Shown here in pieces: positions 30,493-62,166 of a DNA stretch of 64,000 bases. The stretch lies in IMG/VR virus record IMGVR_UViG_3300011008_000003; one strand, given 5' to 3'. Below the pieces are notes generated by a model. The model made no database searches. It was not told the DNA's origin and saw only the letters and a program-made list of their open reading frames with translations. Both the position numbers and the translations under genes were made by a program. Numbering within the stretch: position 1 is the first letter of the stretch; each line of letters begins with the position of its first letter. This DNA is from a virus (Duplodnaviria; Heunggongvirae; Uroviricota; Caudoviricetes).

Positions 30493-30975
30493 ATGCAGTT
30501 AGATGAAGCAAAGAAAATTTTGGAAGATGCTGGCTATACAGTAATTAATGAAGGTAAAGTTACTCGATTTATTGCTGGATTGGCACTTGCAGCAGGTCTT
30601 TTAACACAGGCACAAGCAAAGGAATTTAATGCTCGTGCTAATTCAGATTATAGTAGCAAGGCAACTACGTCAATTTTTGCAAAAGATATTCAGAAGAGCT
30701 ATAATATGGATTCAAATGTCAATATTACAGCGAACATGGTACAGGCTATTGCAGACCAGGCTTCTAAGAAATTGACTGATAAGATGTTAGCCAATAATCT
30801 TTATGACCTTGATGACATGCTTAAGCTTAATGAATTTAAACAGATTATTGAATTCTATAAACAACTTAAGAGTGCAGATGAAAACCTGGCGAATATGTTC
30901 TCTCGCCGCCTTGATAAGTCGTTAACTAAGTCATTAAGTATCGCTCCGAATATTCAACGATACGCTGGAGTATAA
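30493..30975 (+). CDS. Hypothetical protein with shared LxEA..GY leader and internal signal-peptide-like segment
   Basis: MQLDEAKKILEDAGYTVINE then GKVTRFIAGLALAAGLLTQAQA. Confidence 0.75.
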   Translation: MQLDEAKKILEDAGYTVINEGKVTRFIAGLALAAGLLTQAQAKEFNARANSDYSSKATTSIFAKDIQKSYNMDSNVNITANMVQAIADQASKKLTDKMLANNLYDLDDMLKLNEFKQIIEFYKQLKSADENLANMFSRRLDKSLTKSLSIAPNIQRYAGV

Positions 30976-30979
30976 AAAT

Positions 30980-31006
30980 AAATCCTGGTTTAAAACCAGG
31001 ATTTTT
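30980..31006. terminator. Bidirectional intrinsic terminator
   Basis: AAATCCTGGTT-TAA-AACCAGGATTT between convergent genes. Confidence 0.75.
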
Positions 31007-31009
31007 AAT

Positions 31010-31486
31010 TTACATTTTACCGAGTAGTTCAAGTACGTCTTCTTTGGTTTGTTGAGGAGATTCGTACTTTACGATTTGACCACCTGCATCAGCAAAAGCG
31101 TCGCAGTTCTTTCTGAAATCATCGATAAGTAATGCCGAAGGTTCGGCATAATAAGCTTTTTCCTTGCCAAGATTTACGACAATCATGTGGTGTTTGTCTA
31201 ATCCGATATTTTTCTTCAACCAGTTCATTCTACCGATTTTTCCGTCAGAATAATTAACAGAAGTGAGAATGAAAAGGTCAAGATTTTCCTGTGCACAAAG
31301 ATTCTTTACCCATTCGTAAAGTTCTTTTCCCTCAGGAAGCCATTCCATATTTTCCCAAAATTCAGGTGAGTTCTGGTGAATAATTTCCCAGTCAACTGTA
31401 TTACCGTTAATACAGTTGTATTTTTCACATTCACCTCTAAAATTGGCCAGAACACCATCAACATCCAAGTATATCTTGTCAATCAT
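31010..31486 (-). CDS. HAD-family 5'(3')-deoxyribonucleotidase (NT5C-like)
   Basis: IYLDVDGVLANF, FWENMEWLP, FILTS, LLIDDFRKNC. Confidence 0.85.
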   Translation of the reverse strand: MIDKIYLDVDGVLANFRGECEKYNCINGNTVDWEIIHQNSPEFWENMEWLPEGKELYEWVKNLCAQENLDLFILTSVNYSDGKIGRMNWLKKNIGLDKHHMIVVNLGKEKAYYAEPSALLIDDFRKNCDAFADAGGQIVKYESPQQTKEDVLELLGKM

Positions 31487-31562
31487 TATCTAAATCCTTT
31501 TAGTCAAATAAAATATAGCAAATTTTTTGAAAAACTGTTATAGAATTTATTTTACACCATAA

Positions 31563-32237
31563 TTATTTATAGATAAAATCAGAAAGGATAAGTCCACAAG
31601 GATGTTCTTTGGTCTTAGTAAGGAAGCATTCCTGGATATACTTTTCCTGGTTTGCCATAATTTCGATATTGTTCTTGATTCTGAGTTCTTTTCTAAGGAA
31701 TTCACAGATAGCAAAGGCGTCTATAATATCAGAAGTAGGAGAATTACCAGCTTTTCCATTAGTTACTGCTGGCAGGTCAGAAAGGTCAGGTTTGACACCC
31801 TGCCACTTATTGAAAGCATCTCTCATTCCGATTTTATCAGCCGAGCCATAACCAGCAAAGAATTTCTTATTCTGGTTAGGTGTATAGAATTTCAGTTTAC
31901 AACCATGCCTGAACAGGCTAAGTTTTATATTTCCTTCGAATTCTGCAAGGCTGAAAATCATGCCGGATGCACCAGACATAGAATAAGCATAGTCTTCGAC
32001 CCCGATATAATCACAGTCTTTGCACCACCAGATTATATTGTCACAGAAAAACTGATAACGTTCGTAGTCATTCTTAAATTGTGTCGTTTTATAATAAATG
32101 ATATTGTCGGCACTGTTCTTTAAAACTTTAGTAAAACCATGCCGTTCAACTTTAGTGACGTTAAAATTATCGTCAAGTTCTTCAATAATTACACCCGAAG
32201 AGCTAATAGAAAGGTCAAGTCCTGCAATCTTAATCAT
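31563..32237 (-). CDS. RuvC-like Holliday junction resolvase
   Basis: IAGLDLSISSSGV, IGVEDY, ADKIGM, DIIDAFAI acidic catalytic motifs. Confidence 0.8.
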   Translation of the reverse strand: MIKIAGLDLSISSSGVIIEELDDNFNVTKVERHGFTKVLKNSADNIIYYKTTQFKNDYERYQFFCDNIIWWCKDCDYIGVEDYAYSMSGASGMIFSLAEFEGNIKLSLFRHGCKLKFYTPNQNKKFFAGYGSADKIGMRDAFNKWQGVKPDLSDLPAVTNGKAGNSPTSDIIDAFAICEFLRKELRIKNNIEIMANQEKYIQECFLTKTKEHPCGLILSDFIYK

Positions 32238-32247
32238 AAATATATTT

Positions 32248-33498
32248 ATGGCAGCAATAGTCGGATATGAATATAATTTCGCAAAACAGCGAATACAAAA
32301 ATACAGTGATGTAAATAGTACTCCAGTTAAACCTGATGAAAGTAGTAGCAGTACCGAATCTACGGAAGAACAATCCGAAAAAGAGAAGCTAATAGCAGAA
32401 GGTGGTTGGCAGACCCCACAAGAGTATTATGCTAATGCAACTTCTTCGGGCGGTAATAGTAGTTCCGGAGAAGGTGAAAAACAATACAAAGTTGTATCTG
32501 AAAAACTTAATTATTTTTGGATTGAAGATTTAAAGAACTGGGGAGTATATTTTATTGGCAATTTTGAAAATTGTTTCTGTAACTATTTCCATTTATGCTT
32601 ATGGAATGGTAAAGATAATTGGATTCCGATTATTCCTCCTGGCAATGTTGAAAAGGCATTATATCCGAAAAATCTTCTTACACTTCAATTAAATAAAGAC
32701 GATTATAGAATATCGAATTTACAGAATAAATTCTTGGAAAATGACGTAATAGATCCAGTTATTCAACATAGAGGACTTGTTCAGGCAATTCATTCATCGA
32801 ATTCTGATGGAACATCGATATATACGAATCCTACATTTTACAAGACCGATTTGTATCTTCAGGTTGTCCATGCGATAAAGCTTAAGAAACAAGTCAAGTA
32901 TGGAATTAATGATACGAATAATTTCAAGACTATTGCATATAGTACCAACTATATTGATATGATTAAACCTGCACATGTTGGATATTTTGCACAGAGTAAT
33001 TTTAGAGCTCCGGTATTGATTGGCGCTCCTCCAGTCTGGCGTTCTTCTACTGGTGAAGTAACATTATGTACGATATTACAGTGGAACGTTGATAACGGCC
33101 ATGCATATTATTACAAGAAAATAAAGGAAGATAAGGGTTTTAGAAAATATTATAATCCAGATATTTGTAGTAGTAATGGTACTGTTGCAACTAATAAAAT
33201 TATGTCAAGCGATGTTATTGCTAGTATGAACTGGTTAAATGCCCGTTGTGCTAAGTTTTTTGGAAATGGAAACAATAAAACTATAGAATATGACTGGCTT
33301 CAGGAATATAATACGACTGTAGATAAGTCAGAATATAGTAATAGTAGCGGTAAACCGAGCAGCATGTTAAATAGCGAATTGGTGTTCGAACAGCACAATA
33401 TAAATAAAGAAAATTCGTTGAGATGCGGCTTTAAGATAAATCGACCCGTTGTGACGACAACCGAACGTAATGAACAAGAATACGCTAAAAAGTGGTAA
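32248..33498 (+). CDS. Hypothetical protein (likely start 32248, MAAIVGY...)
   Basis: The ORF-track extension to 32098 is antisense to ruvC; coding-like composition begins at ATG 32248. Confidence 0.75.
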   Translation: MAAIVGYEYNFAKQRIQKYSDVNSTPVKPDESSSSTESTEEQSEKEKLIAEGGWQTPQEYYANATSSGGNSSSGEGEKQYKVVSEKLNYFWIEDLKNWGVYFIGNFENCFCNYFHLCLWNGKDNWIPIIPPGNVEKALYPKNLLTLQLNKDDYRISNLQNKFLENDVIDPVIQHRGLVQAIHSSNSDGTSIYTNPTFYKTDLYLQVVHAIKLKKQVKYGINDTNNFKTIAYSTNYIDMIKPAHVGYFAQSNFRAPVLIGAPPVWRSSTGEVTLCTILQWNVDNGHAYYYKKIKEDKGFRKYYNPDICSSNGTVATNKIMSSDVIASMNWLNARCAKFFGNGNNKTIEYDWLQEYNTTVDKSEYSNSSGKPSSMLNSELVFEQHNINKENSLRCGFKINRPVVTTTERNEQEYAKKW

Positions 33499-33501
33499 AT
33501 A

Positions 33502-38767: not shown

Positions 38768-38768
38768 T

Positions 38769-39308: not shown

Positions 39309-39350
39309 AATAAATATTTTAAAAAATTTTTACTATATTTTATAGAGTTT

Positions 39351-39896: not shown

Positions 39897-39907
39897 GGAT
39901 TGTAAAA

Positions 39908-40216: not shown

Positions 40217-40219
40217 GAT

Positions 40220-41020: not shown

Positions 41021-41024
41021 AAAG

Positions 41025-41052
41025 AAAACCGGTTGAAAAACCGGTTTTTTAT
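41025..41052. terminator. Bidirectional intrinsic terminator
   Basis: AAAACCGGTT-GAAA-AACCGGTTTT between convergent genes. Confidence 0.8.
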
Positions 41053-41067
41053 TTTATTTAATTTTTA

Positions 41068-41553: not shown

Positions 41554-41567
41554 GATTTGTTTTTTCC

Positions 41568-41945
41568 TTATTTTATATGATTCAACATCGTTTCTGGTAC
41601 ATTATGTACTACATATCCAGGAGGATTAGCCTTATTTCCCTTTTCGATTCTTAATGTATAGAGGTTAACTCCGTCGATAGGGTCAGATTGTTCTAATATC
41701 CTATAAAGACATTTATCATCCTTGACATTACTAACGACACATTCATTAATTTCAAACGGGCGTACAGTATAGTCTACAGTATATTCAGAAAATTCTTCTA
41801 CTTCTGGTGGTTCATTACCTAGAGTTTTTGCACGCTTTACACCGTCTGCTAATTTACGAGCTACCCAGTCAGGGCAAGTCTTCGCCTTGATTACGTCTCT
41901 CATAGTTTCCATGAGAATATTTAGTTGCTGGGTTTTTAAATCCAT
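41568..41945 (-). CDS. Hypothetical protein (125 aa)
   Basis: Start overlaps the stop of the 41945-42232 ORF. Confidence 0.75.
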   Translation of the reverse strand: MDLKTQQLNILMETMRDVIKAKTCPDWVARKLADGVKRAKTLGNEPPEVEEFSEYTVDYTVRPFEINECVVSNVKDDKCLYRILEQSDPIDGVNLYTLRIEKGNKANPPGYVVHNVPETMLNHIK

Positions 41946-42232
41946 TAGTGTTTTACCAAACGTTTCTTCTTTTTCTTTTTCTTCTTAATCTGCCTTAACC
42001 AGTATTCAGGATGATGTGCATCTGGAACGCCTTTGTAAAGCGGGTTGATAGAGTACGGAGATCTCTGATAAAGAAGACCCATACGCTGTGGACAACATCC
42101 CTTACAGTCACCGCCGTGAGGAATGCCTTGGTCAAGGCCACAAGGAGAACCAACGCCCATGGTGAAATCTTCATTGAGCTGGACTTCATAGCCGTTTTCT
42201 TCTAAAATTTCTAATGCTTCGTCTAAAGTCAT
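41945..42232 (-). CDS. Small protein carrying a copy of the major capsid N-arm peptide and a poly-Lys tail
   Basis: LNEDFTMGVGSPCGLDQGIPHGGDCKG vs MCP LTEDFTQGVGAPLGLDQGIPHGGDARG; C-terminal IKKKKKKKKRLVKH. Confidence 0.85.
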   Translation of the reverse strand: MTLDEALEILEENGYEVQLNEDFTMGVGSPCGLDQGIPHGGDCKGCCPQRMGLLYQRSPYSINPLYKGVPDAHHPEYWLRQIKKKKKKKKRLVKH

Positions 42233-42251
42233 AATTTATTTATGTTTCCTT

Positions 42252-42524: not shown

Positions 42525-42525
42525 G

Positions 42526-50200: not shown

Positions 50201-51826
50201 GTGAATTTAAATTTTCTTAATCCATTTAGTAGCAGCTTCTTAAAAACTTCGCCGGAACACAGTGAAATCCGTGCAAGGGAGGCAGCTCGTAACTCATACG
50301 GTAAAATCGAAGACACCATTGACTGGTCTGCTTTGTCAAACGCCTACGGGAATACATTTGATGATCCCGCTAATCCGCGAGACACAACCCAGATTTATTT
50401 TGACCAAATTTATATAAACAAGTGGCAGAAGATTAGCTGGTATCGTTCCATGGCGATGTACCCGCTTATCGGTAAAGGTTTGAATATTATTACCGACGAA
50501 GCAGTTTGCCCAGACGCACTTGGTAATGTCGCAATGTTTGACATCAAGGAACCGTATAAGCAGAAGTTTACTGCTACAGAATATGCAACCTTGAAGATGG
50601 AATTTGATTATATTGTTGAATGTGTATTTGGACAGGAAAATATATGGAATTTGTTCCATAAGTGGTTACAGGATGCCGAACTCTTTTTGGAAATTGCGTT
50701 GAATGACAATGGAGATAAAGTGGTCGGCATTAATACATTGGCACCTTATGCGATGTTGGTCATTTATGACAGGGATTCCGATAATATTAACGGATTTATC
50801 GAAAATGTAAACTATCTTAATCAGGCACAGATACAAGACAAGAATACTGAAATTCGTCGTTTCTTGCCGAACCAGATTGCATATGTTCGTTATCCGATTA
50901 CTTGGAATAACCGTAATGACGTTCGCGGACATTTGGAACGTTCTATTCGACCGTTGAACCAGCTTAGAAATATTGAAGATGCATTGACGGTTTATCGTAT
51001 TACTCGTGCAACTGAACACCGTGTATTTAACATTTATACTGGTCGTCGTCCGCCTGACAAGGCTGCTGCTTATGTTCAGGAAGTTCGTAATAAGTATCGT
51101 AAGAATTTGACTCTCGATAATACTACTGGTATGGTCAATGCAGTCAAGAATACTCAGGCTATGACTGAAGACTTCTTCTTCTCGAAGGACGACTCTGGCC
51201 AGCAGTCCTCTGTTGAAACATTTGCTTCCGGTTCTACATTTGACGGTCAGATTCAAGACCTTTATATGTTCCAGAAGATGGTTATGGACGGTATGTTTAT
51301 TCCGCAAAATCGTTGGAAGTCTGATGAACTTAGCGGTGCAAATTATAATCAGGGTATTGAATCTGCAAACCTTGAAGAAGTCGCATTCCAGCGTTGCTGC
51401 CGTCGTCTTCGTAGGGCTTTTGCTGATGTAATTAGGCAGGTATTCCTTGTTCATCTTCGTGTTCGTGGATATAAGGAAAAGTTCCTCGATAAGGCAATCT
51501 ATAATATCGATCTTCATCCGGCAACTGACTTCGAACGTATGCGTGACCTTGCTCTTGCAGAAAAACGTGGTTCTGTTCTTTCTATGCTTTCTCAGTTCTT
51601 GCCGACGACAACGAATATTAAGCCGGGTAGTGAAGAACTTGCTCCGTTGTTCTCTAAGCAATACTTCATGGAAAAGATTCTTGGTATGTCCACACAGGAT
51701 ATTCTTATGAATAATAAGATGCTTGAACAGGAAATCAAGCAGATGAATGAAGAAGCTGAAGCCGCAGCTGCTGCAGGTGGCGGAGAAGGTGAAAATCCTG
51801 ATGAAGGCGGAGACTTAGGATTTTAA
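50201..51826 (+). CDS. 20: Portal protein (T4 gp20-like), GTG start
   Basis: YRSMAMYP.I..G..II.DEAV, LERSIRPLNQLRNIEDALTVYRITRATEHRVFNIYTG, MTEDFFF. Confidence 0.95.
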   Translation: MNLNFLNPFSSSFLKTSPEHSEIRAREAARNSYGKIEDTIDWSALSNAYGNTFDDPANPRDTTQIYFDQIYINKWQKISWYRSMAMYPLIGKGLNIITDEAVCPDALGNVAMFDIKEPYKQKFTATEYATLKMEFDYIVECVFGQENIWNLFHKWLQDAELFLEIALNDNGDKVVGINTLAPYAMLVIYDRDSDNINGFIENVNYLNQAQIQDKNTEIRRFLPNQIAYVRYPITWNNRNDVRGHLERSIRPLNQLRNIEDALTVYRITRATEHRVFNIYTGRRPPDKAAAYVQEVRNKYRKNLTLDNTTGMVNAVKNTQAMTEDFFFSKDDSGQQSSVETFASGSTFDGQIQDLYMFQKMVMDGMFIPQNRWKSDELSGANYNQGIESANLEEVAFQRCCRRLRRAFADVIRQVFLVHLRVRGYKEKFLDKAIYNIDLHPATDFERMRDLALAEKRGSVLSMLSQFLPTTTNIKPGSEELAPLFSKQYFMEKILGMSTQDILMNNKMLEQEIKQMNEEAEAAAAAGGGEGENPDEGGDLGF

Positions 51827-51838
51827 TAATTAGGAGTA

Positions 51839-52174
51839 ATGATGTTTGAAGCAATAAATCAAAAATATAAAAAGCAACGTATGCTGGCAGAAGCGAAAGA
51901 ACTGTTAAAAGAAAACGGTTATACGCTTTTGCTGGAAACTCCAGTAGAAAAATTTGAAGATACTGAAAGCAAACAATTTCTTCTTGACGTTATAGACAAT
52001 TTGGAAACATATGGTTATACAGAAAAAGAAGAAATTGACCATTTAGATAGTCTTAAAGGATATATCTGGAATGAGTTGAATAAATTGGCAAGAAGCTTTA
52101 GTATTCAGAAAATAATTCAATATCTAGCTAGATTAGGATTATATCATGATAATGGAGCTGCTCAGCATGCATAA
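51839..52174 (+). CDS. Hypothetical protein with shared LxEA..GY leader
   Basis: MLAEAKELLKENGYTLLLET; GGAG RBS. Confidence 0.75.
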   Translation: MMFEAINQKYKKQRMLAEAKELLKENGYTLLLETPVEKFEDTESKQFLLDVIDNLETYGYTEKEEIDHLDSLKGYIWNELNKLARSFSIQKIIQYLARLGLYHDNGAAQHA

Positions 52175-52179
52175 TTAAA

Positions 52180-52203
52180 AAGACCGGTTATTTAACCGGT
52201 CTT
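52180..52203. terminator. Bidirectional intrinsic terminator
   Basis: AAGACCGGTTA/TAACCGGTCTT between convergent genes. Confidence 0.75.
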
Positions 52204-52208
52204 AATTT

Positions 52209-53210
52209 TTAAGATTCATAATATTTTAGTAGTGATTTTAGCGGCATATCGAAATAACTTAATTCAGAATTTTCATTTTCGCCGCAATAATGGTAATAAT
52301 GCCAGAGTAGTTTATAAATTGTTTCATCACTAGAATTTTTAGAAACGAATAAGTTATAAAGGTCAAATACTGGTATAGGGAACCATACATAATCTTCCTC
52401 ATTATCAGTATCAAGGTCTGGCGTATGCTCAAGCATGAATTCAAGAGCACTGTTGATATTATGACCCTCACAAGTCAGTAAGCGATAGTCATCACCACCG
52501 AATTCATCCATATACTGTTTATCCCAAGGAATACGTTCAGTATCATCAGAATCGCCTGTAATTTTAGAAAGCGGAATTCCATTTTCATAATAATCTTCAA
52601 GTGTTTCGATGTCATTCTTGGAAATAGCATATGCGATAGGATCACGAGGAGTAGCAGCTACTCCGTCAGCACCAGTTGGTTGACCAAGAAGTTCAGTACC
52701 GCAATGATGTAATTGACGCAATTTATCGAAATTTTCATCCGGTTCTGGGTCTTCCGGTTTGCCGCATTCATATTCAAATTCGCGTCTTGCTTCTTCTTCA
52801 TCTTCAAGGAAACCTTCATTTGCACTATAAAGATTGGCAAGTTCCTTCGCAACAGAAATAGGATCAGCACCATCTTCAATAAATTGCTTGATTTGTTCAC
52901 GATGATTTCTGTAATAATTATATGGTCCATCTTCGCCCATATCGAAGAGTTCATCAAGAACACCATCGATGAAATCTGCATCAGATTCTACAGATTCACG
53001 AATTCCATGGAATTTATAATTTCCGATACCGCGGCCAATTTCAAATTTGATACATTGTGCGGCAAAATCCGGCGAGACAGTAGAAGAATCATTGCTAAAA
53101 TAATCAGTAATGAGGTTCATGATAGCATTGAGATTCTTTGAGGTATCAACTCCGTATTTCTTGAGCCAATGCATTACTTTTGCCGTATATTTTTCAAAGG
53201 CTGTTCTCAT
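52209..53210 (-). CDS. Hypothetical acidic protein, possible degenerate ankyrin-like repeats
   Basis: DPIAYAISKNDIETLEDYYENGIPL and NSALEFMLEHTPDLD segments. Confidence 0.65.
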   Translation of the reverse strand: MRTAFEKYTAKVMHWLKKYGVDTSKNLNAIMNLITDYFSNDSSTVSPDFAAQCIKFEIGRGIGNYKFHGIRESVESDADFIDGVLDELFDMGEDGPYNYYRNHREQIKQFIEDGADPISVAKELANLYSANEGFLEDEEEARREFEYECGKPEDPEPDENFDKLRQLHHCGTELLGQPTGADGVAATPRDPIAYAISKNDIETLEDYYENGIPLSKITGDSDDTERIPWDKQYMDEFGGDDYRLLTCEGHNINSALEFMLEHTPDLDTDNEEDYVWFPIPVFDLYNLFVSKNSSDETIYKLLWHYYHYCGENENSELSYFDMPLKSLLKYYES

Positions 53211-53977
53211 AGTAAGTTCCTATATTGTTCATTAAATGTTTTAAAGATATTGGCATAAAGTTGAATATTACTTGCCGTTTCTTTAGAACTAAACTTGCTT
53301 ACACCGGTTTCATCCGGTTCAAGGAAGTCAATCCTTAATTTTACAGTACAAAAGACAGAAGTACGATTAAGTGTATATCCGAGAATTTCTAAACGGTTTG
53401 CATTATCGACATTCTGTTTGATATATGGACGAAAATACTTGTCAAGTTGCATAAGATAGCTCTTGACGTCAGTATTGATTTCATTAGCCATATCGAAAAG
53501 CTTGATACGAAGAATGGCAAATGCTTCACCTTTCTTAGTTTCTACATCCTTAAGTGCAACACCGTCAATGTTATGGACAATGAAAAGCAACTTATTACGG
53601 AGAAGAACATCGTCAATCTGGAGCTGTTTGCCAACTTTTACAGTATTTTTGTCGAGCTGTTCAAGAATATAATCTGCACATTCTGTACTATTATAGCCGT
53701 CATTGTACATGTCAATAACGTCTTCGTTAAGCTCGCGTGGCATTTTCTTGATAGTATAGCCGGATTTCTTAACGATATTGGCGACTGACTTGAGATAGCG
53801 GTTGAACATTTTTTCAATATTACTGCTTTCGTTCATACTACGCAATGACATGACATAGTTTTTCGGGTCGACACCGTTGATGTACGACTCGAAAAGCCCG
53901 TCAAGGTCAAGCTTTATATCTGTATGCTTACGGGAAATAATTTTTTCAACAGTAGATTTATATTGAAGAAAATCCAT
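53207..53977 (-). CDS. Hypothetical protein (256 aa)
   Basis: Cotranscribed after the tail tube gene. Confidence 0.75.
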   Translation of the reverse strand: MDFLQYKSTVEKIISRKHTDIKLDLDGLFESYINGVDPKNYVMSLRSMNESSNIEKMFNRYLKSVANIVKKSGYTIKKMPRELNEDVIDMYNDGYNSTECADYILEQLDKNTVKVGKQLQIDDVLLRNKLLFIVHNIDGVALKDVETKKGEAFAILRIKLFDMANEINTDVKSYLMQLDKYFRPYIKQNVDNANRLEILGYTLNRTSVFCTVKLRIDFLEPDETGVSKFSSKETASNIQLYANIFKTFNEQYRNLL

Positions 53978-53979
53978 TA

Positions 53980-54582: not shown

Positions 54583-54758
54583 TATAATTTCTCCTAAATT
54601 ATTTCTTTTTATTATTTATAATGGTGAACAGATATTTAGAGTTTTCATAAAAACATTTAGAAATTTTATAAATAATTTATATAAATCCAAATTTGTGAGT
54701 GAGTGAAATTCTGTTTATTTGTGTTTATTTAAGTTTATAAAATTATTTAGGAGAATTT

Positions 54759-57700
54759 ATGGCTAAATATTCAGTTCCAGGAATCCGTTTTACTGAGATA
54801 GATAACACTATCCGTGCGGAATCCGATCCGGGCTTGGGCATTGGTGCAATCGTTATGGCATCAAATAAAGGCCCTGTTAACCAGCGTGTGGTTACGAAGA
54901 ATTATAACGAATTTACCGAAATCTTCGGTAAACCGGAAACTCTTGAGAGTTACGGTCACTTCGCTGCTGAGAATTACTTCGCTAATTCCAACCAGCTTTT
55001 CGCAGTTCGTGCCACAATGGGTGACGAACAGTATGCACAGATTCAGTATAGCTACCGTGGCGCTCCGGTGACTGCTACCAACCAGTCTATCGATACTGCC
55101 AAGTTGACTTACGTCGACAAGGAAGCTGACAATAATCTTGTACTTTTGCAGCCGCTTTCTGCGGTTACTGTCGTTCAGTCTATGATTTCTGGCGGCGACT
55201 GGCAGTACGATGGCGGTGAAGAAGACCCGGATGGTGGTCAGTATGGTTTTGCTCTTAAGCAGAAGGCTTATTACAACCTGTTCTCTGACTTCAAGAAGGA
55301 AACTGAAGACCTTATCGTTTTCAAGGGTACAACCGACGACGGTTGGAAGGGCACTATCACTGAAGAAGGTGTTCGTGTTATTTACCCGACTTCTGTCGAT
55401 GTTAACGGTAATGACCCGCAGCTCGATACTAAGTTGAACTTCAGTGACGAAGGTTGGGAATCTTCCGCTGCACCTGAAAGCATTAGCATTGTTCCGAAGG
55501 GAAGCTTGTATAATATTGTCAGCATTGATGTCCCGGCATCTGCAACGCTTGACAAGGAACGCAACAAGATTACATTCTATAGCGATATTTCTGCAACTTC
55601 TGCTATTAGCGGTTGGACAGTTTCTGGTGTCGATTTCAAGGATGTCTTCAAGGATGATTATTTCCTTGGTGATTATGACTTCGAAACCGCTGACCCGGCT
55701 ACTGACAATTACGGTATTCTTGAAGCTCAGCGTATGGAAATCATGGACTGGGATCAGCCGGACCTTAAGAAGACTTACTACGTCGATAGCAAGGCATTTG
55801 AAGATACCTGTGCTCAGGCTTTCGGTATCAAGTATACTGAATGGTTCAATATCGATTCTAGCTATGCTATTGTCGGTAAGAAAGAACTTGACGAAGATGA
55901 AGGAACAGACTTCGTATTCTGTTCTGCAGTCTCTGCGATGTATACCAACAAGACTCAGAAGGAAGAATGGCTCGGTAACGATGATATTAAGGAACGTACT
56001 CCGCGTGAAGTTATCGTCGACATGATGGATTCTTACGGATGTAACGACATTTCTGATATTAACGATTACTACTACATGAAGTATCACGATGTATTTGCTG
56101 ACGCTACCATCGAAAAGATTGTCAAGGAACGTCCGGATTACTACAGCTCCAAGAAGCCGAAGAACCCGCCTGCAGACTATAATCCGCAGAATTTCCGTGA
56201 ACATGTTGAAGAATATCTGTTCTGGCTTTATTCCGAAAAGGGAACAAACGTTCTTACTAAGGAAAGCGTCTATCTCGCTGACGATACAGAACTTGTTAAG
56301 TTGCCAATCCAGGCCGGCTATACTATCAAGAAGGCCGATGACGAATATGTTACTTTGAATAATATTGTTGCTAGCCCGACTTCGTTCCTTGTCAACTCTG
56401 TCGATAAGACTTATGCTGACGGTTATACGGTTACGACCGACGCTGAAGATGAACCGGGTATCGGCGATATTGAACGTTATAATTCTGTGTTTGCTGACCA
56501 GCTTGTTATCGCTTCTATCGGACCTGGTGAATACGGTAACGACATCGGTGTTTCTATTATCACGACTGAATGTGAAAACATTCCGGCTCTTCATCACCAG
56601 AATGCCTTCCAGTGGAAGGATAAGTATGATGATGAAGACCAGATTAAGAAGGACACTTCTCCGTATAATCAGAACCCGCTCAACCTCATTTGGAAGAAGG
56701 TTTTCCGTATCAATGTCTACATCAAGACTAAGACTCAGACCGCTGAAGCCGCTTGGGGTACAGGTATGGATGCTCTCTTGAAGGATCCTGCAGAATCTTG
56801 GTGGGTTTCTACTGACCCGTATGCAAAGGACGGCGAAGGTAACAGCCTTTACGCTCCGGTTGTAATTAACGGTCATTCTGACTACATCTATGTTTCTCGT
56901 TCTTCTGCATCCGCCGCTGCTAACAAGAAGGGTGAATACGTCCAGCCGAACCAGACTTTCGCAATTTACAACCTCACCGGTGGTAAGAATTCTACCAAGA
57001 ATACGATTTCTGAAAAGGCTGCTGCTCTTAACTTCTATAACGATAGACAGCGTGCTAAGTTTGATATTCTCTTCAACGTCGACGCGGTTGATACCTTCAA
57101 CGGTCGTCAGAAGTATAACGCTCTCCAGCGTAAGATTGCTCAGATTGCTGCATCTCGTACCCAGGATATTGGTGTTGTTCAGGTTACTTCCAAGGCTGCA
57201 AAGACTGCTAAGCAGATGATTTCGGAAGCAAAGAACTTCTCCTTCAACAAGGGTGATTACGTAGCTGAATACGGTGGTTATGATAAGTATTACAACTCTG
57301 ACCTCGCTGCATGGATTTACCTGCCGAAGTCTGTTGCTGGTGCTTGCTCTATGGCTTACTGTGATAATTACTTCTATCCGTGGATGGCTCCGGCTGGTGT
57401 CGAACGCGGTACGATTAATTACACTAACGGTCAGTTGCTCCGTCTTACCGACGACGAAATCGGTCAGCTCTATGACAATAACGTTAACACGACTCGTGAC
57501 TGTGGCGGTTACGGTGTGGTTCTTTGGGGTCAGAGAACGGCTCTCAAGAAGAACAGCCTGCTCAACCGTATCAATGTCCGTCGTTGCTTGAACTATATCG
57601 AGAAGATTCTTGAAAACAAGATGACTCCGTACCTCTTCATGCAGAATAGTGTTAACACTCGTAGCTCCGCAAGAAATGATATTCGTAGCTTCCTCGAAAG

Positions 57701-57872
57701 AGTCAAGGCTGCTGAAGGTATCTATGACTTCGACTTGAGTGTTACTGCGGACCCGGATGATCCGACAATCATGAACGTTGCAATTCAGATTCAGCCGACA
57801 AGCGCAATCGAATTCATCGACATCAAGATTATCGTCAACCGTCAGTCTGGTGTTACTGTTGCTGAAGAGTAA
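54759..57872 (+). CDS. 18: Tail sheath protein (T4 gp18-like) with large insertion
   Basis: SVPGIRFTEID, KGPV, IFGKP; C-terminal WMAPAGVERG, LYDNNVN, VVLWGQRT, RINVRRCLNYIEK, PTSAIEFI. Confidence 0.95.
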   Translation: MAKYSVPGIRFTEIDNTIRAESDPGLGIGAIVMASNKGPVNQRVVTKNYNEFTEIFGKPETLESYGHFAAENYFANSNQLFAVRATMGDEQYAQIQYSYRGAPVTATNQSIDTAKLTYVDKEADNNLVLLQPLSAVTVVQSMISGGDWQYDGGEEDPDGGQYGFALKQKAYYNLFSDFKKETEDLIVFKGTTDDGWKGTITEEGVRVIYPTSVDVNGNDPQLDTKLNFSDEGWESSAAPESISIVPKGSLYNIVSIDVPASATLDKERNKITFYSDISATSAISGWTVSGVDFKDVFKDDYFLGDYDFETADPATDNYGILEAQRMEIMDWDQPDLKKTYYVDSKAFEDTCAQAFGIKYTEWFNIDSSYAIVGKKELDEDEGTDFVFCSAVSAMYTNKTQKEEWLGNDDIKERTPREVIVDMMDSYGCNDISDINDYYYMKYHDVFADATIEKIVKERPDYYSSKKPKNPPADYNPQNFREHVEEYLFWLYSEKGTNVLTKESVYLADDTELVKLPIQAGYTIKKADDEYVTLNNIVASPTSFLVNSVDKTYADGYTVTTDAEDEPGIGDIERYNSVFADQLVIASIGPGEYGNDIGVSIITTECENIPALHHQNAFQWKDKYDDEDQIKKDTSPYNQNPLNLIWKKVFRINVYIKTKTQTAEAAWGTGMDALLKDPAESWWVSTDPYAKDGEGNSLYAPVVINGHSDYIYVSRSSASAAANKKGEYVQPNQTFAIYNLTGGKNSTKNTISEKAAALNFYNDRQRAKFDILFNVDAVDTFNGRQKYNALQRKIAQIAASRTQDIGVVQVTSKAAKTAKQMISEAKNFSFNKGDYVAEYGGYDKYYNSDLAAWIYLPKSVAGACSMAYCDNYFYPWMAPAGVERGTINYTNGQLLRLTDDEIGQLYDNNVNTTRDCGGYGVVLWGQRTALKKNSLLNRINVRRCLNYIEKILENKMTPYLFMQNSVNTRSSARNDIRSFLERVKAAEGIYDFDLSVTADPDDPTIMNVAIQIQPTSAIEFIDIKIIVNRQSGVTVAEE

Positions 57873-57891
57873 TAGATTATGACAGAAATAC

Positions 57892-57918
57892 AAAAGGCAT
57901 CCGAAAGGATGTCCTTTT
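57892..57918 (+). terminator. Intrinsic terminator
   Basis: AAAAGG-CATCC-GAAA-GGATG-T-CCTTTT after the sheath gene. Confidence 0.75.
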
Positions 57919-57947
57919 GTTTTATATAAATAATTAGAGGTTTATAA

Positions 57948-60900
57948 ATGGCTAATTTTGTCAAAGATGTCGATTTTACTGTAAATGATAAGAGTACAAT
58001 AGATAGATTTCATGTCGAGCTGACTTTTGCTTTTGACGTATCGAACTATCTTGAAAATGACGGATTTAGAATCACGATTGAAGACTTATTGACTCATAAG
58101 AATCTTTTAATCACGTCTGAAGATTTACTGTATGGTGACGGTTATGGTCTTGTTCCAATACAAGGCGATGAAATAAATGAAGAGACAAAAGCTAAGCAAA
58201 TTAATGATAGTCTTATTGAAAATGAAGGTTTAGTTATTTTTCTTACCGGATATAATATATTGACTATCATAATGATACCGAAATGTACAAATGGTAATAA
58301 AACAATCGGATTTTATTCTTCTAATGTCTATGTTCAGTTTACCGAAGAAGAAGAAATTAATAGCATTAAGTTCTTTGCTAATCTTTTTCCGAAAATGATT
58401 AGAAATGAGACTATCGTACAGAATGAAGAAATTGATGACCCTGTTTTGAAAGAAATGAATATTAGACCGGCATTTGATTTTAATAAGAATGTTGATAAAA
58501 ATGTAAATAGGTCATTTAAATACGATACTAAGAAAATCTTTTATGCCAATACAACTTCTAAAGAATACATTGATGAAGAGGTTCCAGCATATATAAGCAC
58601 TATTTCGGCAATGGGTATTGACGATTTAGATAAGGCGATATTTGATTTCCAATATAATTGGGAAAAGGCAGAATCTTATCTTGTTGACGAAAGCACTGAT
58701 AAGAAATATGATATTGATTATACGGTAAATGAACCTGATTCTTATACATTTGAACCTGTTCCTGATTATACGACTACAGTCGATGATTATTTGATAACTC
58801 AGTATATCTACAAGGAAACTCCGGGTTTCTATAAGAATAAGCTCGTATTTAATCTCGAAAATATTCCGACTGGTACTTCATTAGAAAATCTTGTTGTAAC
58901 AATCGAAGATCTTAATCCAAAACGATTCAATAGTATGGATATTAGCGGTACAGGTACGGTTAAAATCTATAACCCGAACGTTGATTACCGTTCTCTTGAT
59001 ATTTTAACGTCTGGATTTATTGAAGATTTGTTTGAAAATCTTGACGTAGAGATTGATTATGAAGGTATAGATACATCTAAGTATGAAACTTATGGTGAAG
59101 TTACGATTCCGTTAAAGAATATTTGTTTTGATTTGCCTGAAGGCACAAAGAAGGCTGTTGGCAAATTTGGTTATTCAGCATATCTTGACATTCAGAATAT
59201 AGAAAGACTTACTCCGGAAGAAATTAGAGATATTACTTATGGTTGGGATTCTGTAGCAATAGATTATTATACAGAAGCACCTAAATTAGTTCCATTATCT
59301 GCAGAAATTGTTAGTGCTTCTCCTAATTATGCAGATAATACTATAATGCTTAATGACCCAGAAACGATTTCGGTTAAGATTACCAATTTAAATCTTGATT
59401 ATATTTCTGATGATTATCCAATTGCAATTAGTTGTACTTGGAATGGTGAAGATAAAGAGAGATCTATTATAAATGAAGATAAGTCTCATTATGCAACAGA
59501 TCATTATATTACATTCGATGTAACAGGTCTTGAAGCGACTGAAACCATAGATACATATGATTTTGTTGTTGCAGGTTATATTCAGGGTGAAGACCCAGAT
59601 GTGGAACCGCCTATTACAAAAGAACAGATGAAAACAGAAACTACCGGTTCAACCAGTATGCAATTTAAACTGTTTATTGATACTCTTGAACATTTGGTAT
59701 TTGATGAAAATTCTATTGTATATGACCCAGAATTACAGGTTGATGAAGAAGGAAATCTTGTTAAGCAGATTAAGAAAGATTTTACTCAATCATTTACAAT
59801 AGTATTAAAGAATCCAAATATTAAGTATAGAGATTCTGTTGCTTATCCGGTAAAAGTTGAAGTTGTACAAGGTGTAGACTTTTTCAATGATGCTGAAGTA
59901 TCTTGGACATATGATGCTAATTATTCAGATATGGGTGAAACTGGCGGTAAGATTATCGTAACAGTAACGAATATGCATATTGATGTTCCTAATGTTAAGA
60001 AAACTATTAGCCTTTATGCTTATATCGATGCTGATGATGCACATCATACACAAGAAGAAATTAAATACCAGACAGACGCTTCGTATGAAGATGAAGAATG
60101 GTGGATGATGGAAGACCCAGTTATTCCGTATATCTGGGAATTCATGAAGAATTATGTCATTTATACTGACTCTGTTCTTGAAACCGAAAACTCATATATT
60201 GGTGCAAGAGATATTCGTTGTGCCGGTGCAAATTTCAGCTTTACTAACGTTGAATCTAACATTTATGCTATCGGTAATTTGAACATTAACAATCATAATA
60301 GAAATCCAGATTTGCCGTATTATTTAGGAGATGAACAAGTTAATCCTGGTTCTACGTCTACTGGTCAAAGCCCAGAGCTTAATTTCTATAATAACAATAC
60401 TATTAGATATAATCTTACCGGCGAAAATAAGCCAATGCTTTATTACTATTACAACCCGGAAGATCCAGATGGAAATAATAGATTTACAAATACGAATGTT
60501 TCTGTAATTGGTGGCGACCCATTTGATGGAAGCATGATTTTGACCGATAAGATGATTCGTGAAATCCCGCAGCTTCCAGTTTATCCTGGTACTAAGGTAA
60601 TTGATATTGGACAAAATGCTACATATGATTTTGATGCAAATAAAGATACAGATTTTGATTATGATGAAGAATTGAAGATTTATAGAGCAAAATCATTTAC
60701 TGCTGGTAATAATTGTAGACTTGAATTGTGTGCTGGTGAATTCCATCTTGAAAACTTTAATGCAGATACATTTTTGGTAATCCATGTGCCTGTGTTAGAA
60801 GATGGGCAATACGTAAAATTGATGGTACAGGGCAATATTAGAATAAGTAATAACTTGACTATCATAAATGACAATGACAGGATGGATTCATTACTGTTCT

Positions 60901-61100
60901 ATAGCTATGAAGGCGATATATCGTTTGCTGCTGCTGGAGATAGTCAGGGAACTGACCGCCAGATTGGTCTTGCAGTTGCGCCTAAGGGAACTATTTCGTT
61001 AAGTAATAAGTTTATCTGGAAGGGCGGAACTTGGGCCAAGAAAGTTATTGTTCAGGCAAGGGCTGAATATCACTTACTTCCTGAAGTTGATGATGAATAA
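57948..61100 (+). CDS. Large (1050 aa) acidic structural protein with C-terminal beta-helix (choice-of-anchor A/ice-binding-like) domain
   Basis: Ig-like acidic repeats; C-terminus GLAVAPKGTISLSNKFIWKGGTWAKKVIVQARAEY resembles beta-solenoid C-ends. Confidence 0.6.
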   Translation: MANFVKDVDFTVNDKSTIDRFHVELTFAFDVSNYLENDGFRITIEDLLTHKNLLITSEDLLYGDGYGLVPIQGDEINEETKAKQINDSLIENEGLVIFLTGYNILTIIMIPKCTNGNKTIGFYSSNVYVQFTEEEEINSIKFFANLFPKMIRNETIVQNEEIDDPVLKEMNIRPAFDFNKNVDKNVNRSFKYDTKKIFYANTTSKEYIDEEVPAYISTISAMGIDDLDKAIFDFQYNWEKAESYLVDESTDKKYDIDYTVNEPDSYTFEPVPDYTTTVDDYLITQYIYKETPGFYKNKLVFNLENIPTGTSLENLVVTIEDLNPKRFNSMDISGTGTVKIYNPNVDYRSLDILTSGFIEDLFENLDVEIDYEGIDTSKYETYGEVTIPLKNICFDLPEGTKKAVGKFGYSAYLDIQNIERLTPEEIRDITYGWDSVAIDYYTEAPKLVPLSAEIVSASPNYADNTIMLNDPETISVKITNLNLDYISDDYPIAISCTWNGEDKERSIINEDKSHYATDHYITFDVTGLEATETIDTYDFVVAGYIQGEDPDVEPPITKEQMKTETTGSTSMQFKLFIDTLEHLVFDENSIVYDPELQVDEEGNLVKQIKKDFTQSFTIVLKNPNIKYRDSVAYPVKVEVVQGVDFFNDAEVSWTYDANYSDMGETGGKIIVTVTNMHIDVPNVKKTISLYAYIDADDAHHTQEEIKYQTDASYEDEEWWMMEDPVIPYIWEFMKNYVIYTDSVLETENSYIGARDIRCAGANFSFTNVESNIYAIGNLNINNHNRNPDLPYYLGDEQVNPGSTSTGQSPELNFYNNNTIRYNLTGENKPMLYYYYNPEDPDGNNRFTNTNVSVIGGDPFDGSMILTDKMIREIPQLPVYPGTKVIDIGQNATYDFDANKDTDFDYDEELKIYRAKSFTAGNNCRLELCAGEFHLENFNADTFLVIHVPVLEDGQYVKLMVQGNIRISNNLTIINDNDRMDSLLFYSYEGDISFAAAGDSQGTDRQIGLAVAPKGTISLSNKFIWKGGTWAKKVIVQARAEYHLLPEVDDE

Positions 61101-61104
61101 AAAG

Positions 61105-61131
61105 AAAACCGGTCAAAATGACCGGTTTTTT
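61105..61131. terminator. Bidirectional intrinsic terminator
   Basis: AAAACCGGTCA-AAA-TGACCGGTTTT between convergent genes. Confidence 0.8.
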
Positions 61132-61152
61132 ATTTAACAAGGAGATAAAGAT

Positions 61153-61533
61153 TTAAGAGTTGACACCCGGAATCGGAGTCAAGTTATTGCAATCGCAACC
61201 GTTGCAGCTGAAAATCTTTGTATCTGCGTCAATCTTCTTCGGCGGGAGAAGCTTATGAGTATGTCCGTCACCTGCCGGCTGGACGACACCATTGTTGATG
61301 AAATGGATATGTCCGCCAACCTGTGTTATAGGAGTAGGCTCATTGAGATTCGACGGTTCACAGATGGAATCACTGGTACGACCGTAACCAGTTTCGTCAA
61401 AAATCCAGTATTCGTGATGATGCGGACCCATAACATTGGAACCGCTAAATACGTCAGTTACACCGATTTGCGAGGTATTTTCGTTGAGCGCCATCTGCAT
61501 TTGTTCGCCAACATAATCTGTAAATTTCTTCAT
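61153..61533 (-). CDS. His-motif protein (HxH repeats, YmaF-like)
   Basis: HHHEY, GHIH and GHTH motifs plus CNGCDC. Confidence 0.6.
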   Translation of the reverse strand: MKKFTDYVGEQMQMALNENTSQIGVTDVFSGSNVMGPHHHEYWIFDETGYGRTSDSICEPSNLNEPTPITQVGGHIHFINNGVVQPAGDGHTHKLLPPKKIDADTKIFSCNGCDCNNLTPIPGVNS

Positions 61534-61561
61534 TTTGCTAATTCCTCAATATTTTACTTCT

Positions 61562-61575
61562 TTATTTATAAATAA
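61562..61575. promoter_or_regulatory. Palindromic bidirectional late promoter TTATTTATAAATAA
   Basis: Perfect palindrome between divergent genes 61533 and 61603. Confidence 0.8.
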
Positions 61576-61602
61576 TACAGATATAAAATTGGAGAAATTG
61601 TC

Positions 61603-62166
61603 ATGACACTTTATGAAGCAAAACAGCTAGTTGAACGTGCGGGCTATTCCGTCGTCAAGAAGAATCACGAAGTTACTAAGAAAGACTTCGTTACAAAGAA
61701 ATACGACAAGGATTCTGTCGAAATCGATGATAATCATGATATTGTGGTAAAGAAGAAGCAGCGTAAGCTTGCTCGTAAGTGCCCTTGCTGTGGTCGTTCA
61801 CATTGTATTTGTTCTAGTGCGGTTAAGGAAGCTCTTGCCGTTGCTGAAAAGGCTGGTTTCCAGGTTATTTCTGAACGTATTGGTGACAGCGCTGGTACGA
61901 AGCTTTCTGAAGTCTGCGAAAAGTGGCTCAGAAACGCATTTTTTGAAAAGGTTGCAAATGCTGCATCTCTCGAAGTAGCAAAGGCACAGTTCCTTGAAGA
62001 CGTTTCCAAGCTTGTCGACCATGGTGTTTCTGGTCCGAAATACAATGAAATCTGTTTTCACATAGACGAAAGCCCAAATCTCAATAAGACCTTGCTCTAT
62101 ATTGCAGGCCTTATGCAGACTGCTCAGGGACGTGGTTTGCGCCGTGACCCTCGCCGTGGCTGGTAA
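61603..62166 (+). CDS. Hypothetical protein with two copies of the LxEA..GY leader and a Cys cluster
   Basis: MTLYEAKQLVERAGYSVV and VKEALAVAEKAGFQVISE flank KCPCCGRSHCIC. Confidence 0.75.
   Translation: MTLYEAKQLVERAGYSVVKKNHEVTKKDFVTKKYDKDSVEIDDNHDIVVKKKQRKLARKCPCCGRSHCICSSAVKEALAVAEKAGFQVISERIGDSAGTKLSEVCEKWLRNAFFEKVANAASLEVAKAQFLEDVSKLVDHGVSGPKYNEICFHIDESPNLNKTLLYIAGLMQTAQGRGLRRDPRRGW

What the first reader, a model, noticed from the sequence alone, without database searches (positions are those of the whole stretch)
30493..62166. Portable ~20-aa leader (LxEA-x2-[IL][LV]-x3-G[YF]-x-[VL]...xE) on unrelated small late proteins
Four otherwise dissimilar ORFs share it: 30493 MQLDEAKKILEDAGYTVINE, 41945(-) MTLDEALEILEENGYEVQLNE, 51839 MLAEAKELLKENGYTLLLE, and 61603 MTLYEAKQLVERAGYSVV with a second internal copy VKEALAVAEKAGFQVISE. 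A weaker copy lies in 53207 (NIVKKSGYTI..LNE). Most end in an I/L-x-E site. T4 internal proteins use a cleavable capsid-targeting sequence, but its sequence differs (MKT[YF]xEF..E). Inference: a second, distinct capsid-targeting module shuffled onto cargo proteins; if true it is a usable packaging tag.
Basis: partly seen in the sequence, partly recalled or inferred. Interest (0 to 1): 0.8.

Follow-up and report, generated by a model that had tools for sequence, protein, structure and literature searches.

The report
Shared capsid-loading leader in rumen megaphage
Many unrelated small late proteins of a ~420-kb T4-like rumen phage start with the same 20-residue tag ending in the cut site of the phage's head protease. 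The tag is most likely an address label that loads proteins into the capsid, as in phage T4 but with a new, longer sequence; packaging itself is unproven.

Summary
Four ORFs in the window carry five copies of a ~20-residue motif, M-[NT]-L-x-E-A-K-x-[IL]-L-x-x-N/A-G-Y-x-[VIL]-[IL]-x-E. The proposed sixth copy in ORF 53207 is at noise level.

The window belongs to a T4-like megaphage with relatives of 415-424 kb in rumen-type metagenomes.
- Complete relatives carry about 13-26 and 7-20 copies, spread across the genome.
- 329 protein clusters in a 1.84-billion-protein library match the motif.
- Among the best 150 hits, 132 of 150 copies start at residue 1.
- 127 of 150 end in [IL]-x-E, the T4 gp21 protease motif, against 7.5% in control stretches.
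- The bodies fall into at least 78 unrelated clusters.

Other support:
- The lineage encodes a gp21-family protease.
- A small paralog of the major capsid protein (MCP) has the leader in place of the MCP's 54-residue propeptide, joined at the predicted cleavage junction (E|DF).
- 76% of carriers have a T4-type late promoter box upstream.
- Carriers flank the portal, scaffold and protease genes.

Best reading (about 0.6): a protease-removable capsid-targeting leader, analogous to the T4 capsid targeting sequence (CTS) but unrelated to it in sequence. No virion proteomics exists. Most bodies are acidic, unlike T4 internal proteins.

The scan has found CTS-like leaders of other sequence on other phage DNA. 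I class this as a new variant of a known kind.

The parts
30493..30552 (+). Leader copy, residues 1-20 of the 160-aa ORF 30493-30975. The predicted cut is after INE20, and a hydrophobic segment follows.
   Evidence: 38.9 bits. A late box TATAAATA lies 26 nt upstream. The G003 ortholog keeps the leader.
42170..42232 (-). Leader copy, residues 1-21 of the 95-aa ORF 41945-42232. The predicted cut is after LNE21. The body is a copy of the mature N-terminal arm of the major capsid protein, followed by a 9-Lys tail.
   Evidence: 42% identity to MCP residues 52-124, E 2e-15; alignment A4; E-D-F junction invariant.
51878..51937 (+). Leader copy, residues 14-33 of the 111-aa ORF 51839-52174, which lies directly after the portal gene. 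The predicted cut is after LLE33.
   Evidence: The slot is variable between near-identical phages.
61603..61662 (+). First leader copy (residues 1-20) of the 187-aa ORF 61603-62166, directly upstream of the scaffold gene. This copy lacks [IL]xE.
61819..61875 (+). Second, internal leader copy (residues 73-91) of the same ORF, ending ISE91. The conserved, confidently folded helical body begins a few residues later.
   Evidence: an [IL]xE before the body is conserved, also in the G002 version; pLDDT 34-56 for residues 1-97 and 80-92 for residues 100-172.
62285..63259 (+). gp22-like head scaffolding protein, with 22 [IL]xE sites.
   Evidence: phrog_237; 22 sites against 8.0 +/- 2.4 in shuffles; most conserved in orthologs.
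63354..63998 (+). Major capsid protein (gp23-like, runs off the window end). It has a 54-residue propeptide and a predicted cut at LTE54|D55.
   Evidence: An ungapped register puts LLTE on T4 FLTE65|A66. T4 mature chains are 456 aa against 521 aa for the precursor.
50201..51826 (+). T4 gp20-type portal protein. It marks the head module.
   Evidence: PF07230, E 3e-73.
53207..53977 (-). It is not a supported member.
   Evidence: 2.8 bits, E 3.1; 7.4 bits, E 0.22.

Best explanation
The motif is a lineage-specific capsid-targeting propeptide.

Its parts (inferred):
- The N-terminal amphipathic helix (M-N-L-x-E-A-K-x-I-L-K) docks the protein onto a component of the prohead core during head assembly.
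- The following short strand (G-Y-x-[VIL]-[IL]-x-E) presents an L/I-x-E site to the gp21-type prohead protease.
- The protease cuts after the Glu and frees the mature cargo inside the head.

Likely cargo (inferred):
- head-core accessory proteins encoded beside the portal, scaffold and protease genes, some with 2-6 tandem leaders;
- a mimic of the MCP N-terminal arm;
- a lytic transglycosylase;
- dozens of orphan small proteins that are probably ejected with the DNA.

Shown here: the motif, its Met1 position, the terminal [IL]xE, the protease gene in the lineage, the junction with the MCP cleavage site, the late promoter boxes and the body diversity.

Not shown: docking, cleavage and packaging.
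For: 1. Position. In 29 of 41 carrier frames from the window and relatives, motif column 1 is the first ATG of the frame. In the 1.84-billion-protein library, 329 clusters match at E<=1e-3, and 132 of the 150 best copies start at residue 1.

2. Cleavage site. 127 of 150 copies have a strict [IL]xE with the Glu at position 18-21, against 43 of 575 control stretches. The Glu sits at position 18, 19 or 20 in three length classes, so the tripeptide is kept rather than a fixed register. The residue after the Glu is mostly S, D, G or A.

3. Protease. A Peptidase_S77 (PF03420) gene is present in G002, G003 and G004. G004 is the contig with a 98%-identical portal and 99%-identical MCP and scaffold. 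T4 gp21 cuts after L/I-X-E (PMC9026906).

4. MCP junction. The MCP propeptide ends LLTE54|DF, in register with T4 FLTE65|AE. The MCP paralog reads leader-LNE|DF..GVG.P.G.DQGIPHGGD, with E-D-F invariant across the MCP and its paralogs. T4 shows the same logic: gp24 starts MAKINELLRE and IPII/IPIII start MKTYQEFIAE.

5. Late expression. 31 of 41 carriers (28 of 37 after de-duplication) have [TCA]ATAAATA within 45 nt upstream. The figure for window genes is 27 of 64 (Fisher p about 0.001-0.002).

6. Location. Carriers lie after the portal, before the scaffold and beside the protease in all relatives examined.

7. Portability.
- 29 body clusters among 41 local carriers, and 78 among 109 library carriers.
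- Polyprotein-like [leader-body]x2 forms with swapped C-terminal bodies.
- The slot after the portal holds different leader ORFs in phages with 98%-identical portals.

8. Protein-level selection. Invariant Ala6, Gly14 and Leu3 each use 4-5 different codons.

9. Structure. AlphaFold2 puts leader segments in low-confidence regions outside the folded bodies.

10. Scaffold. It carries 22 [IL]xE sites against 8 expected.

11. Cargo type. One carrier has an SLT lytic transglycosylase domain, a class known among ejected phage proteins (my own knowledge, for example T7 gp16).
Against: - There are no proteomic or N-terminal data for any member, and no cultured relative. The best cultured portal match is about 25% identical.
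- The tag is twice the length of the T4 CTS and shows no sequence likeness to it.
- About 12% of copies are internal or C-terminal. Some lack a following [IL]xE, so N-terminal position is not obligatory.
- 75% of bodies are acidic (median pI 5.0). T4 internal proteins are basic.
- [IL]xE may partly be a structural feature of the strand. The search profile included those columns, which inflates the count somewhat.
- Enrichment of [IL]xE in the scaffold can also arise from coiled-coil heptads.
- Several carrier clusters sit among non-structural genes such as RNA ligase and DHFR. The T4 ipII and ipIII genes, beside denV and e, do the same.
Confidence: 0.6

Rival explanations
1. The leader is a protease-removed propeptide but not the address. 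It might keep cargo inactive or unfolded until head maturation, or simply supply a cleavage site, while entry into the prohead depends on other features.
For: - The [IL]xE end and the MCP junction bear on cleavage, not on targeting.
- Internal copies at module junctions look like polyprotein cut sites.
Against: - Cleavage needs only the tripeptide, yet 17 further residues are conserved on at least 78 unrelated bodies.
- In T4 the equivalent propeptide is both address and cut site (PMC9026906).
- A prohead protease acts inside proheads, so its substrates must get there.
Confidence: 0.13
2. The leader is a general docking or oligomerisation module for some other late complex (tail, baseplate, membrane or a host factor), unrelated to the capsid. 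On this view the terminal Glu is structural.
For: - It is a helix-strand unit with weak likeness to PASTA and ribosomal L12 C-terminal elements.
- C-terminal and internal copies exist.
- Proteins with 3-6 tandem copies could be multivalent adaptors.
- The bodies are acidic.
Against: - The Pfam hits are below their thresholds.
- The Met1 bias is strong.
- [IL]xE is retained in three different registers.
- The leader replaces the MCP propeptide exactly.
- Carriers cluster beside the portal, scaffold and protease genes rather than the tail genes.
Confidence: 0.15
3. The leader is a recognition sequence for a modifying enzyme, in the manner of RiPP leaders. An earlier finding of this scan proposed this for a shared tag in phage RB43, linked to a radical-SAM enzyme.
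For:
- This genome is reported to hold radical-SAM and ATP-grasp genes in a sugar locus (unchecked).
Against: - The RB43 genome has only a chance-level match, in the UvsY C-terminus at 14.9 bits, so this is not that tag.
- No radical-SAM or other modifying enzyme was seen among the neighbours checked beside one carrier cluster; the larger ones are an RNA ligase, an ADP-ribosylglycohydrolase and DHFR.
- This reading does not explain the MCP junction.
Confidence: 0.05
4. The repeats reflect chance, composition, or a nucleotide-level element such as a translation-initiation region or a recombination box.
For: The genome is AT-rich, and the sites lie at gene starts close to late promoters.
Against: - Everything except the five copies in the window is at noise.
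- Invariant residues use 4-5 synonymous codons, and third-position identity at identical residues is only 56%.
- 329 library clusters match at E<=1e-3.
Confidence: 0.01

Closest known systems
T4 capsid targeting sequence (CTS) of internal proteins IPI/IPII/IPIII and Alt, removed by the prohead protease gp21 (Mullaney & Black 1996, as summarised in PMC9026906 and PMC3012670)
   Same: - An N-terminal propeptide on otherwise unrelated, fast-evolving proteins.
- It ends in L/I-x-E.
- The phage has a gp21-family protease.
- A capsid-protein paralog carries the short leader in place of the long MCP propeptide (T4 gp24 MAKINELLRE; here ORF 41945).
- The genes are scattered, some in small clusters.
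   Different: - 20 residues rather than 10, with a helix plus a G-Y strand.
- No sequence likeness: the T4 genome gives no match at E<=10.
- Roughly 13-26 and 7-20 copies per genome, against about 4-8 carriers in T4.
- Tandem, internal and C-terminal copies occur.
- The bodies are mostly acidic.
- There is no experimental proof.
Propeptides of head and inner-body proteins of giant phages phiKZ, 201phi2-1 and SPN3US, removed by gp175/gp245 proteases (PMC9026906, PMC5694885)
   Same: - Many head-packaged or ejected proteins in a very large phage.
- They are processed after Glu by a gp21-related protease.
- Propeptides can hold several sites.
   Different: According to those papers, cleavage there follows a short motif with few determinants and no shared 20-residue leader. 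Here a single conserved tag is reused. This phage is T4-like in its portal, MCP and sheath, not phiKZ-like.
Other CTS-like leaders found earlier in this scan on uncultured T4-like phages (for example 10-residue tags of the M-I-K-L-K-x-L-L-x-E type; e1-1621284, e1-1842526, e1-1844225, e1-1718485)
   Same: The same logic: a shared N-terminal tag ending in [IL]xE on many unrelated proteins of T4-related phages.
   Different: A different sequence and double the length, in a rumen megaphage lineage. Here the MCP-paralog junction gives an internal control for the cut site. I did not re-test those notes.
Encapsulin cargo-loading peptides
   Same: A short, portable peptide that loads diverse cargo into an HK97-fold shell (my own knowledge).
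   Different: They are usually C-terminal, bind the shell protein directly and are not removed by a protease. No homology was tested.

Membership tests
T4-type CTS / gp21-removed propeptide | Located at the extreme N-terminus (starts at Met1) | tested here: met
   29 of 41 local carriers and 132 of 150 library copies. A minority are internal or C-terminal.
T4-type CTS / gp21-removed propeptide | Ends in the gp21 cleavage motif L/I-x-E | tested here: met
   127 of 150 against 43 of 575 background stretches, and 4 of 5 window copies.
T4-type CTS / gp21-removed propeptide | The phage encodes a gp21-family (Peptidase_S77) prohead protease | tested here: met
   PF03420 scores 99-121 bits in G002, G003 and G004. 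By synteny with G004 the gene lies about 4 kb beyond the window end, so it is not in the window itself.
T4-type CTS / gp21-removed propeptide | Carried by otherwise unrelated proteins that vary between related phages | tested here: met
   29 and 78 body clusters. The slot after the portal is variable.
T4-type CTS / gp21-removed propeptide | Sequence and length like the T4 CTS (10 residues, MKTYQEFIAE) | tested here: not met
   T4 IPII and IPIII N-termini were read from NC_000866. The leader profile finds nothing in T4 at E<=10.
T4-type CTS / gp21-removed propeptide | Sufficient for encapsidation of a foreign protein and cleaved in the head | not testable with these tools
   This needs virion proteomics or fusion experiments. 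There is no cultured relative.
T4 internal proteins (IP class of cargo) | Small basic proteins packed with the DNA | tested here: not met
   75% of 102 bodies have pI below 6. Three of the four window bodies are basic (pI 8.7-9.7).
PASTA domain (PF03793) / Ribosomal L12 C-terminal domain (PF00542) | Score above the Pfam gathering threshold over the domain | tested here: not met
   Hits of 14 bits against a 23-bit cut-off, covering only a helix-strand piece. Among 78 carriers, 2 matched PASTA and 1 matched L12, at E about 1e-4.
Radical-SAM-linked shared tag (earlier finding e1-127136) | The same tag sequence, with a radical-SAM enzyme encoded nearby | tested here: not met
   RB43 gives only a 14.9-bit chance match in UvsY. 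No such enzyme was seen among the neighbours checked beside one carrier cluster.

The most novel reading that the evidence does not exclude
The 20-residue helix-strand tag would define the whole set of packaged and injected proteins of a clade of ~420-kb rumen megaphages: more than 20 cargo proteins per genome and more than 300 families in metagenomes. It would work by a mechanism not described for T4. Core proteins bearing 2-6 tandem tags, encoded beside the scaffold and protease genes, would act as multivalent hubs that co-assemble tagged cargo. Polyprotein cargo arrays would be cut apart at internal tags. If so, the injected anti-host arsenal of uncultured megaphages could be read from sequence, and the tag would be a ready-made packaging handle.
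Probability: 0.25. Interest if true: 0.75.

Novelty: new variant of a known kind. Interest (0 to 1): 0.55.

Why it matters
If the tag is a capsid address, it lists from sequence alone the proteins that a 420-kb uncultured rumen phage packs into its head and probably injects. Those proteins are mostly orphans and are candidate anti-defence or host-takeover factors. The probable host is Fibrobacter, according to an earlier unchecked note of this scan and one carrier with a Fib_succ_major domain.

It would also show that T4-like phages have re-invented the CTS with different sequences and lengths. That gives comparative material on what a CTS needs: a helix plus an [IL]xE strand.

It would offer a second, orthogonal packaging tag for phage-capsid delivery work.

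The MCP-paralog junction is a useful internal marker for predicting protease cut sites in uncultured T4-like phages.

Tried and rejected
- Complex prediction, scaffold alignment A6 with leader alignment A2: no verdict (score 0.00, controls not run). This is not evidence either way.
- tblastn of a 24-residue leader against cultured phages: no match. Short queries have little power here.
- A strict degenerate DNA pattern found only 7 IMG/VR contigs, six of them from sample series that also gave the portal relatives.
- The protein-atlas search on the leader: no usable hit.
- The look-up of encoding contigs for three library hits gave only contigs of 3-6 kb with uninformative neighbours.
- PHROGs and Pfam on the carriers: almost nothing.
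- Idea that ORF 41945 is a frameshifted half of a 195-aa gene: rejected. The downstream ORF 41568-41945 is not homologous to the C-terminal domain of the G002 version, and the two ORFs overlap in a TAATG coupling.
- The 53207 'weak copy': rejected as noise.
- A nucleotide-level element: rejected on codon diversity.
- Identity with the RB43 radical-SAM tag: rejected.
- No whole genome is held for the window. Counts per genome therefore come from relatives G002 and G003.
- Literature searches found no paper on these rumen phages, and no metagenomic survey of CTS variants in the held library.

Full report
**What is in the window**

A regex scan of all 364 ORFs of 40 aa or more finds the core pattern only in these four ORFs, five times.

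An HMM built from the five copies scores them at 28-36 bits. Every other six-frame piece of the 64 kb scores 2.8 bits or less, and that includes the proposed weak copy in ORF 53207. A second profile, built mainly from library hits, gives the four ORFs domain E-values of 3e-11 to 6e-7 and gives 53207 an E of 0.22.

In ORF 51839 the motif begins at residue 14, not at the start codon. In ORF 61603 there is a second copy at residues 73-91. Four of the five copies end in [IL]-x-E.

**What the phage is**

The window encodes:
- a T4 gp20-type portal (PF07230, E 3e-73);
- a tail sheath, a tail tube and a gp6-like baseplate wedge;
- head-closure proteins;
- a gp22-like scaffold;
- the start of a gp23-like major capsid protein (MCP).

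Portal relatives in IMG/VR include complete contigs of 415,750 and 424,163 bp with terminal repeats (G002, G003) and a 69-kb fragment whose portal is 98% identical (G004). Earlier notes of this scan describe the same genome as a ~430-kb rumen phage with a probable Fibrobacter host (unchecked by me). The nearest cultured phages share only about 25% portal identity, so no virion proteomics applies.

**How widespread the motif is**

The motif profile finds 26 matches in G002 and 20 in G003 at E<=10 per genome (13 and 7 at E<1e-3). They are spread from 49 to 360 kb, and in G002 they include tandem clusters at 151-153, 216-217 and 272-274 kb.

In 29 of 41 distinct carrier frames, motif column 1 is the first ATG of the open frame. 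With the motif masked, the 41 carriers fall into 29 BLAST-unrelated body clusters.

A profile search of 1.84 billion cluster representatives gives 329 proteins at E<=1e-3. Among the best 150:
- 132 of 150 strong copies start at residue 1;
- 127 of 150 have a strict [IL]xE with the Glu at position 18-21, against 43 of 575 control stretches from the same proteins;
- the Glu occupies position 18, 19 or 20 in three length classes, so it is the tripeptide that is kept;
- the next residue is mostly S, D, G or A;
- 109 carriers of 70 aa or more give 78 body clusters, almost none with a Pfam family.

Conservation is at the protein level. The invariant Ala, Gly and Leu positions use four or five codons each.

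A strict DNA pattern finds the tag in IMG/VR on only seven contigs, six of them from sample series that also gave the portal relatives. T4 and RB43 lack it.

**Link to the prohead protease**

All three related records encode a Peptidase_S77 (gp21) protease at 99-121 bits. By synteny with G004 the gene lies about 4 kb beyond the window's end. T4 gp21 cuts after L/I-X-E (PMC9026906).

The MCP propeptide ends LLTE54|DF. Counting back 25 residues from the conserved block (FAPISLALVRR here, IGPAVMGMVRR in T4) puts this exactly on T4 FLTE65|AE. PDB mature gp23 chains are 456 aa against 521 aa for the precursor.

ORF 41945 is a small paralog of the mature MCP N-terminal arm (42% identity, E 2e-15). 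In it and in its relatives, the 20-residue leader stands where the MCP has its 54-residue propeptide, and the junction E|D-F is invariant. T4 does the same thing: gp24 starts MAKINELLRE, IPII and IPIII start MKTYQEFIAE, and gp21 starts MNEPQLLIE.

The scaffold has 22 [IL]xE sites against 8.0 +/- 2.4 in shuffles, and most are conserved. Coiled-coil heptads may contribute to that excess.

The protease N-termini of this lineage read MEAKKLLNE or MEAKKLLCE, which resembles the first half of the leader.

**Context and expression**

Carriers lie directly after the portal (window ORF 51839; a different 74-aa ORF in G004; none in G002 or G003). They also lie directly before the scaffold in every relative and beside the protease.

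Of 41 carriers, 31 have a T4-type late box [TCA]ATAAATA within 45 nt upstream, usually followed by AGGAG. The figure for window genes of 80 aa or more is 27 of 64 (p about 0.001). Those without a box are mostly downstream members of tandem clusters.

Other clusters sit among non-structural genes such as RNA ligase, an ADP-ribosylglycohydrolase and DHFR. The T4 ipII and ipIII genes, which lie beside denV and e, are placed similarly.

**Architecture**

- The protein encoded before the scaffold has two leaders in the window clade and three in another clade (P0018). One library protein (P0021) has six, separated by acidic linkers, and all but one end in [ILV]xE.
- Some proteins are [leader-body]x2, with the second body exchanged between relatives (P0026 and P0028; alignment A7).
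- A few copies are C-terminal.
- AlphaFold2 places leader segments as a short helix, sometimes with a strand, in low-confidence regions. The bodies that begin just after the [IL]xE fold confidently: ORF 61603 has pLDDT 34-56 for residues 1-97 and 80-92 for residues 100-172. P0066 behaves likewise.
- One carrier bears an SLT lytic transglycosylase.
- Bodies are mostly acidic (median pI 5.0).

**Interpretation**

The simplest account is a capsid-targeting propeptide of the T4 kind with a new sequence. A helix serves for docking, and a strand presents [IL]xE to the prohead protease. In T4, diverse internal proteins share only such a tag (PMC3012670; PMC9026906).

I put this at about 0.6. Cleavage by the prohead protease alone I would put near 0.7.

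The rivals are:
- a cleavage-only propeptide;
- a docking module for another complex;
- a recognition tag for a modifying enzyme, a caution raised by earlier finding e1-127136, which I checked and found to be a different motif;
- a nucleotide-level or chance feature, which is excluded.

A complex prediction of the leader with the scaffold gave no verdict and is not used as evidence.

**Novelty**

The principle is known from T4. This scan has already reported other CTS-like tags on other uncultured T4-like phages. What is new here:
- the 20-residue helix-strand sequence;
- its scale in a megaphage lineage;
- the multi-tag and polyprotein forms;
- the MCP-paralog junction that pins the cut site.

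I found no paper on it in the held library.

Noticed in passing
window 51839-53977; L002:11641-11865; L006 and L014 around 11600-12300: The slot just after the portal gene is hypervariable. The window has a 111-aa leader ORF plus two minus-strand ORFs. A contig with a 98%-identical portal has a different 74-aa ORF with a degenerate leader. G002 and G003 go straight from the portal to the tail tube.
   Followed up: partly
window 41945-42232 (-): A 95-aa protein made of the leader, a copy of the mature N-terminal arm of the major capsid protein (with extra cysteines) and a tail of nine lysines. The G002 and G003 versions are 195 aa with an added C-terminal domain. The role of a free MCP N-arm mimic is unknown.
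   Followed up: partly
L080:5150-7849 (-) and L080:7920-10661 (-) (G002, about 273-278 kb): Two adjacent proteins of ~900 aa begin with a degenerate form of the leader (MNL-D/E-YAAYLLNE..ILNE|D) and have no Pfam family. They may be large packaged proteins.
   Followed up: no
L060:1504-2172 (+), L061, L062 (prohead protease genes of G004, G003, G002): The protease N-termini read MEAKKLLNE or MEAKKLLCE followed by a second [IL]xE. This resembles the first half of the leader and parallels T4 gp21 MNEPQLLIE. The protease may use a cut-down version of the same address.
   Followed up: partly
L060:582-1397 (+) (G004, directly upstream of the protease): A 271-aa, very acidic, low-complexity protein with an internal leader copy (residues 163-182, ending INE) and a Cys/Lys-rich linker. 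The protein beside the protease in G002 shares that linker. It looks like a core protein assembled from shuffled modules.
   Followed up: partly
window 57948-61100 (+): A 1050-aa ORF between the sheath gene and the head genes has no PHROG or Pfam match.
   Followed up: no
window 54861-57893 (-): A 1010-aa open frame runs antisense to the tail sheath gene. It is most likely a shadow ORF.
   Followed up: no
window 43090-43947 (+): An ORF resembling a homing endonuclease (phrog_3339, E 6e-7) is inserted among structural genes.
   Followed up: no
window 30553-30620 (residues 21-42 of ORF 30493): Directly after the predicted cut site comes a hydrophobic stretch ending AQA, like a membrane or signal segment. 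It is conserved in the G003 ortholog.
   Followed up: no
L086:2282-2524 (T4 gene 67): T4 prohead core protein gp67 starts MEGLIEAIKSNDL, a faint likeness to the megaphage leader (L-x-E-A-x-K). It may be chance.
   Followed up: no
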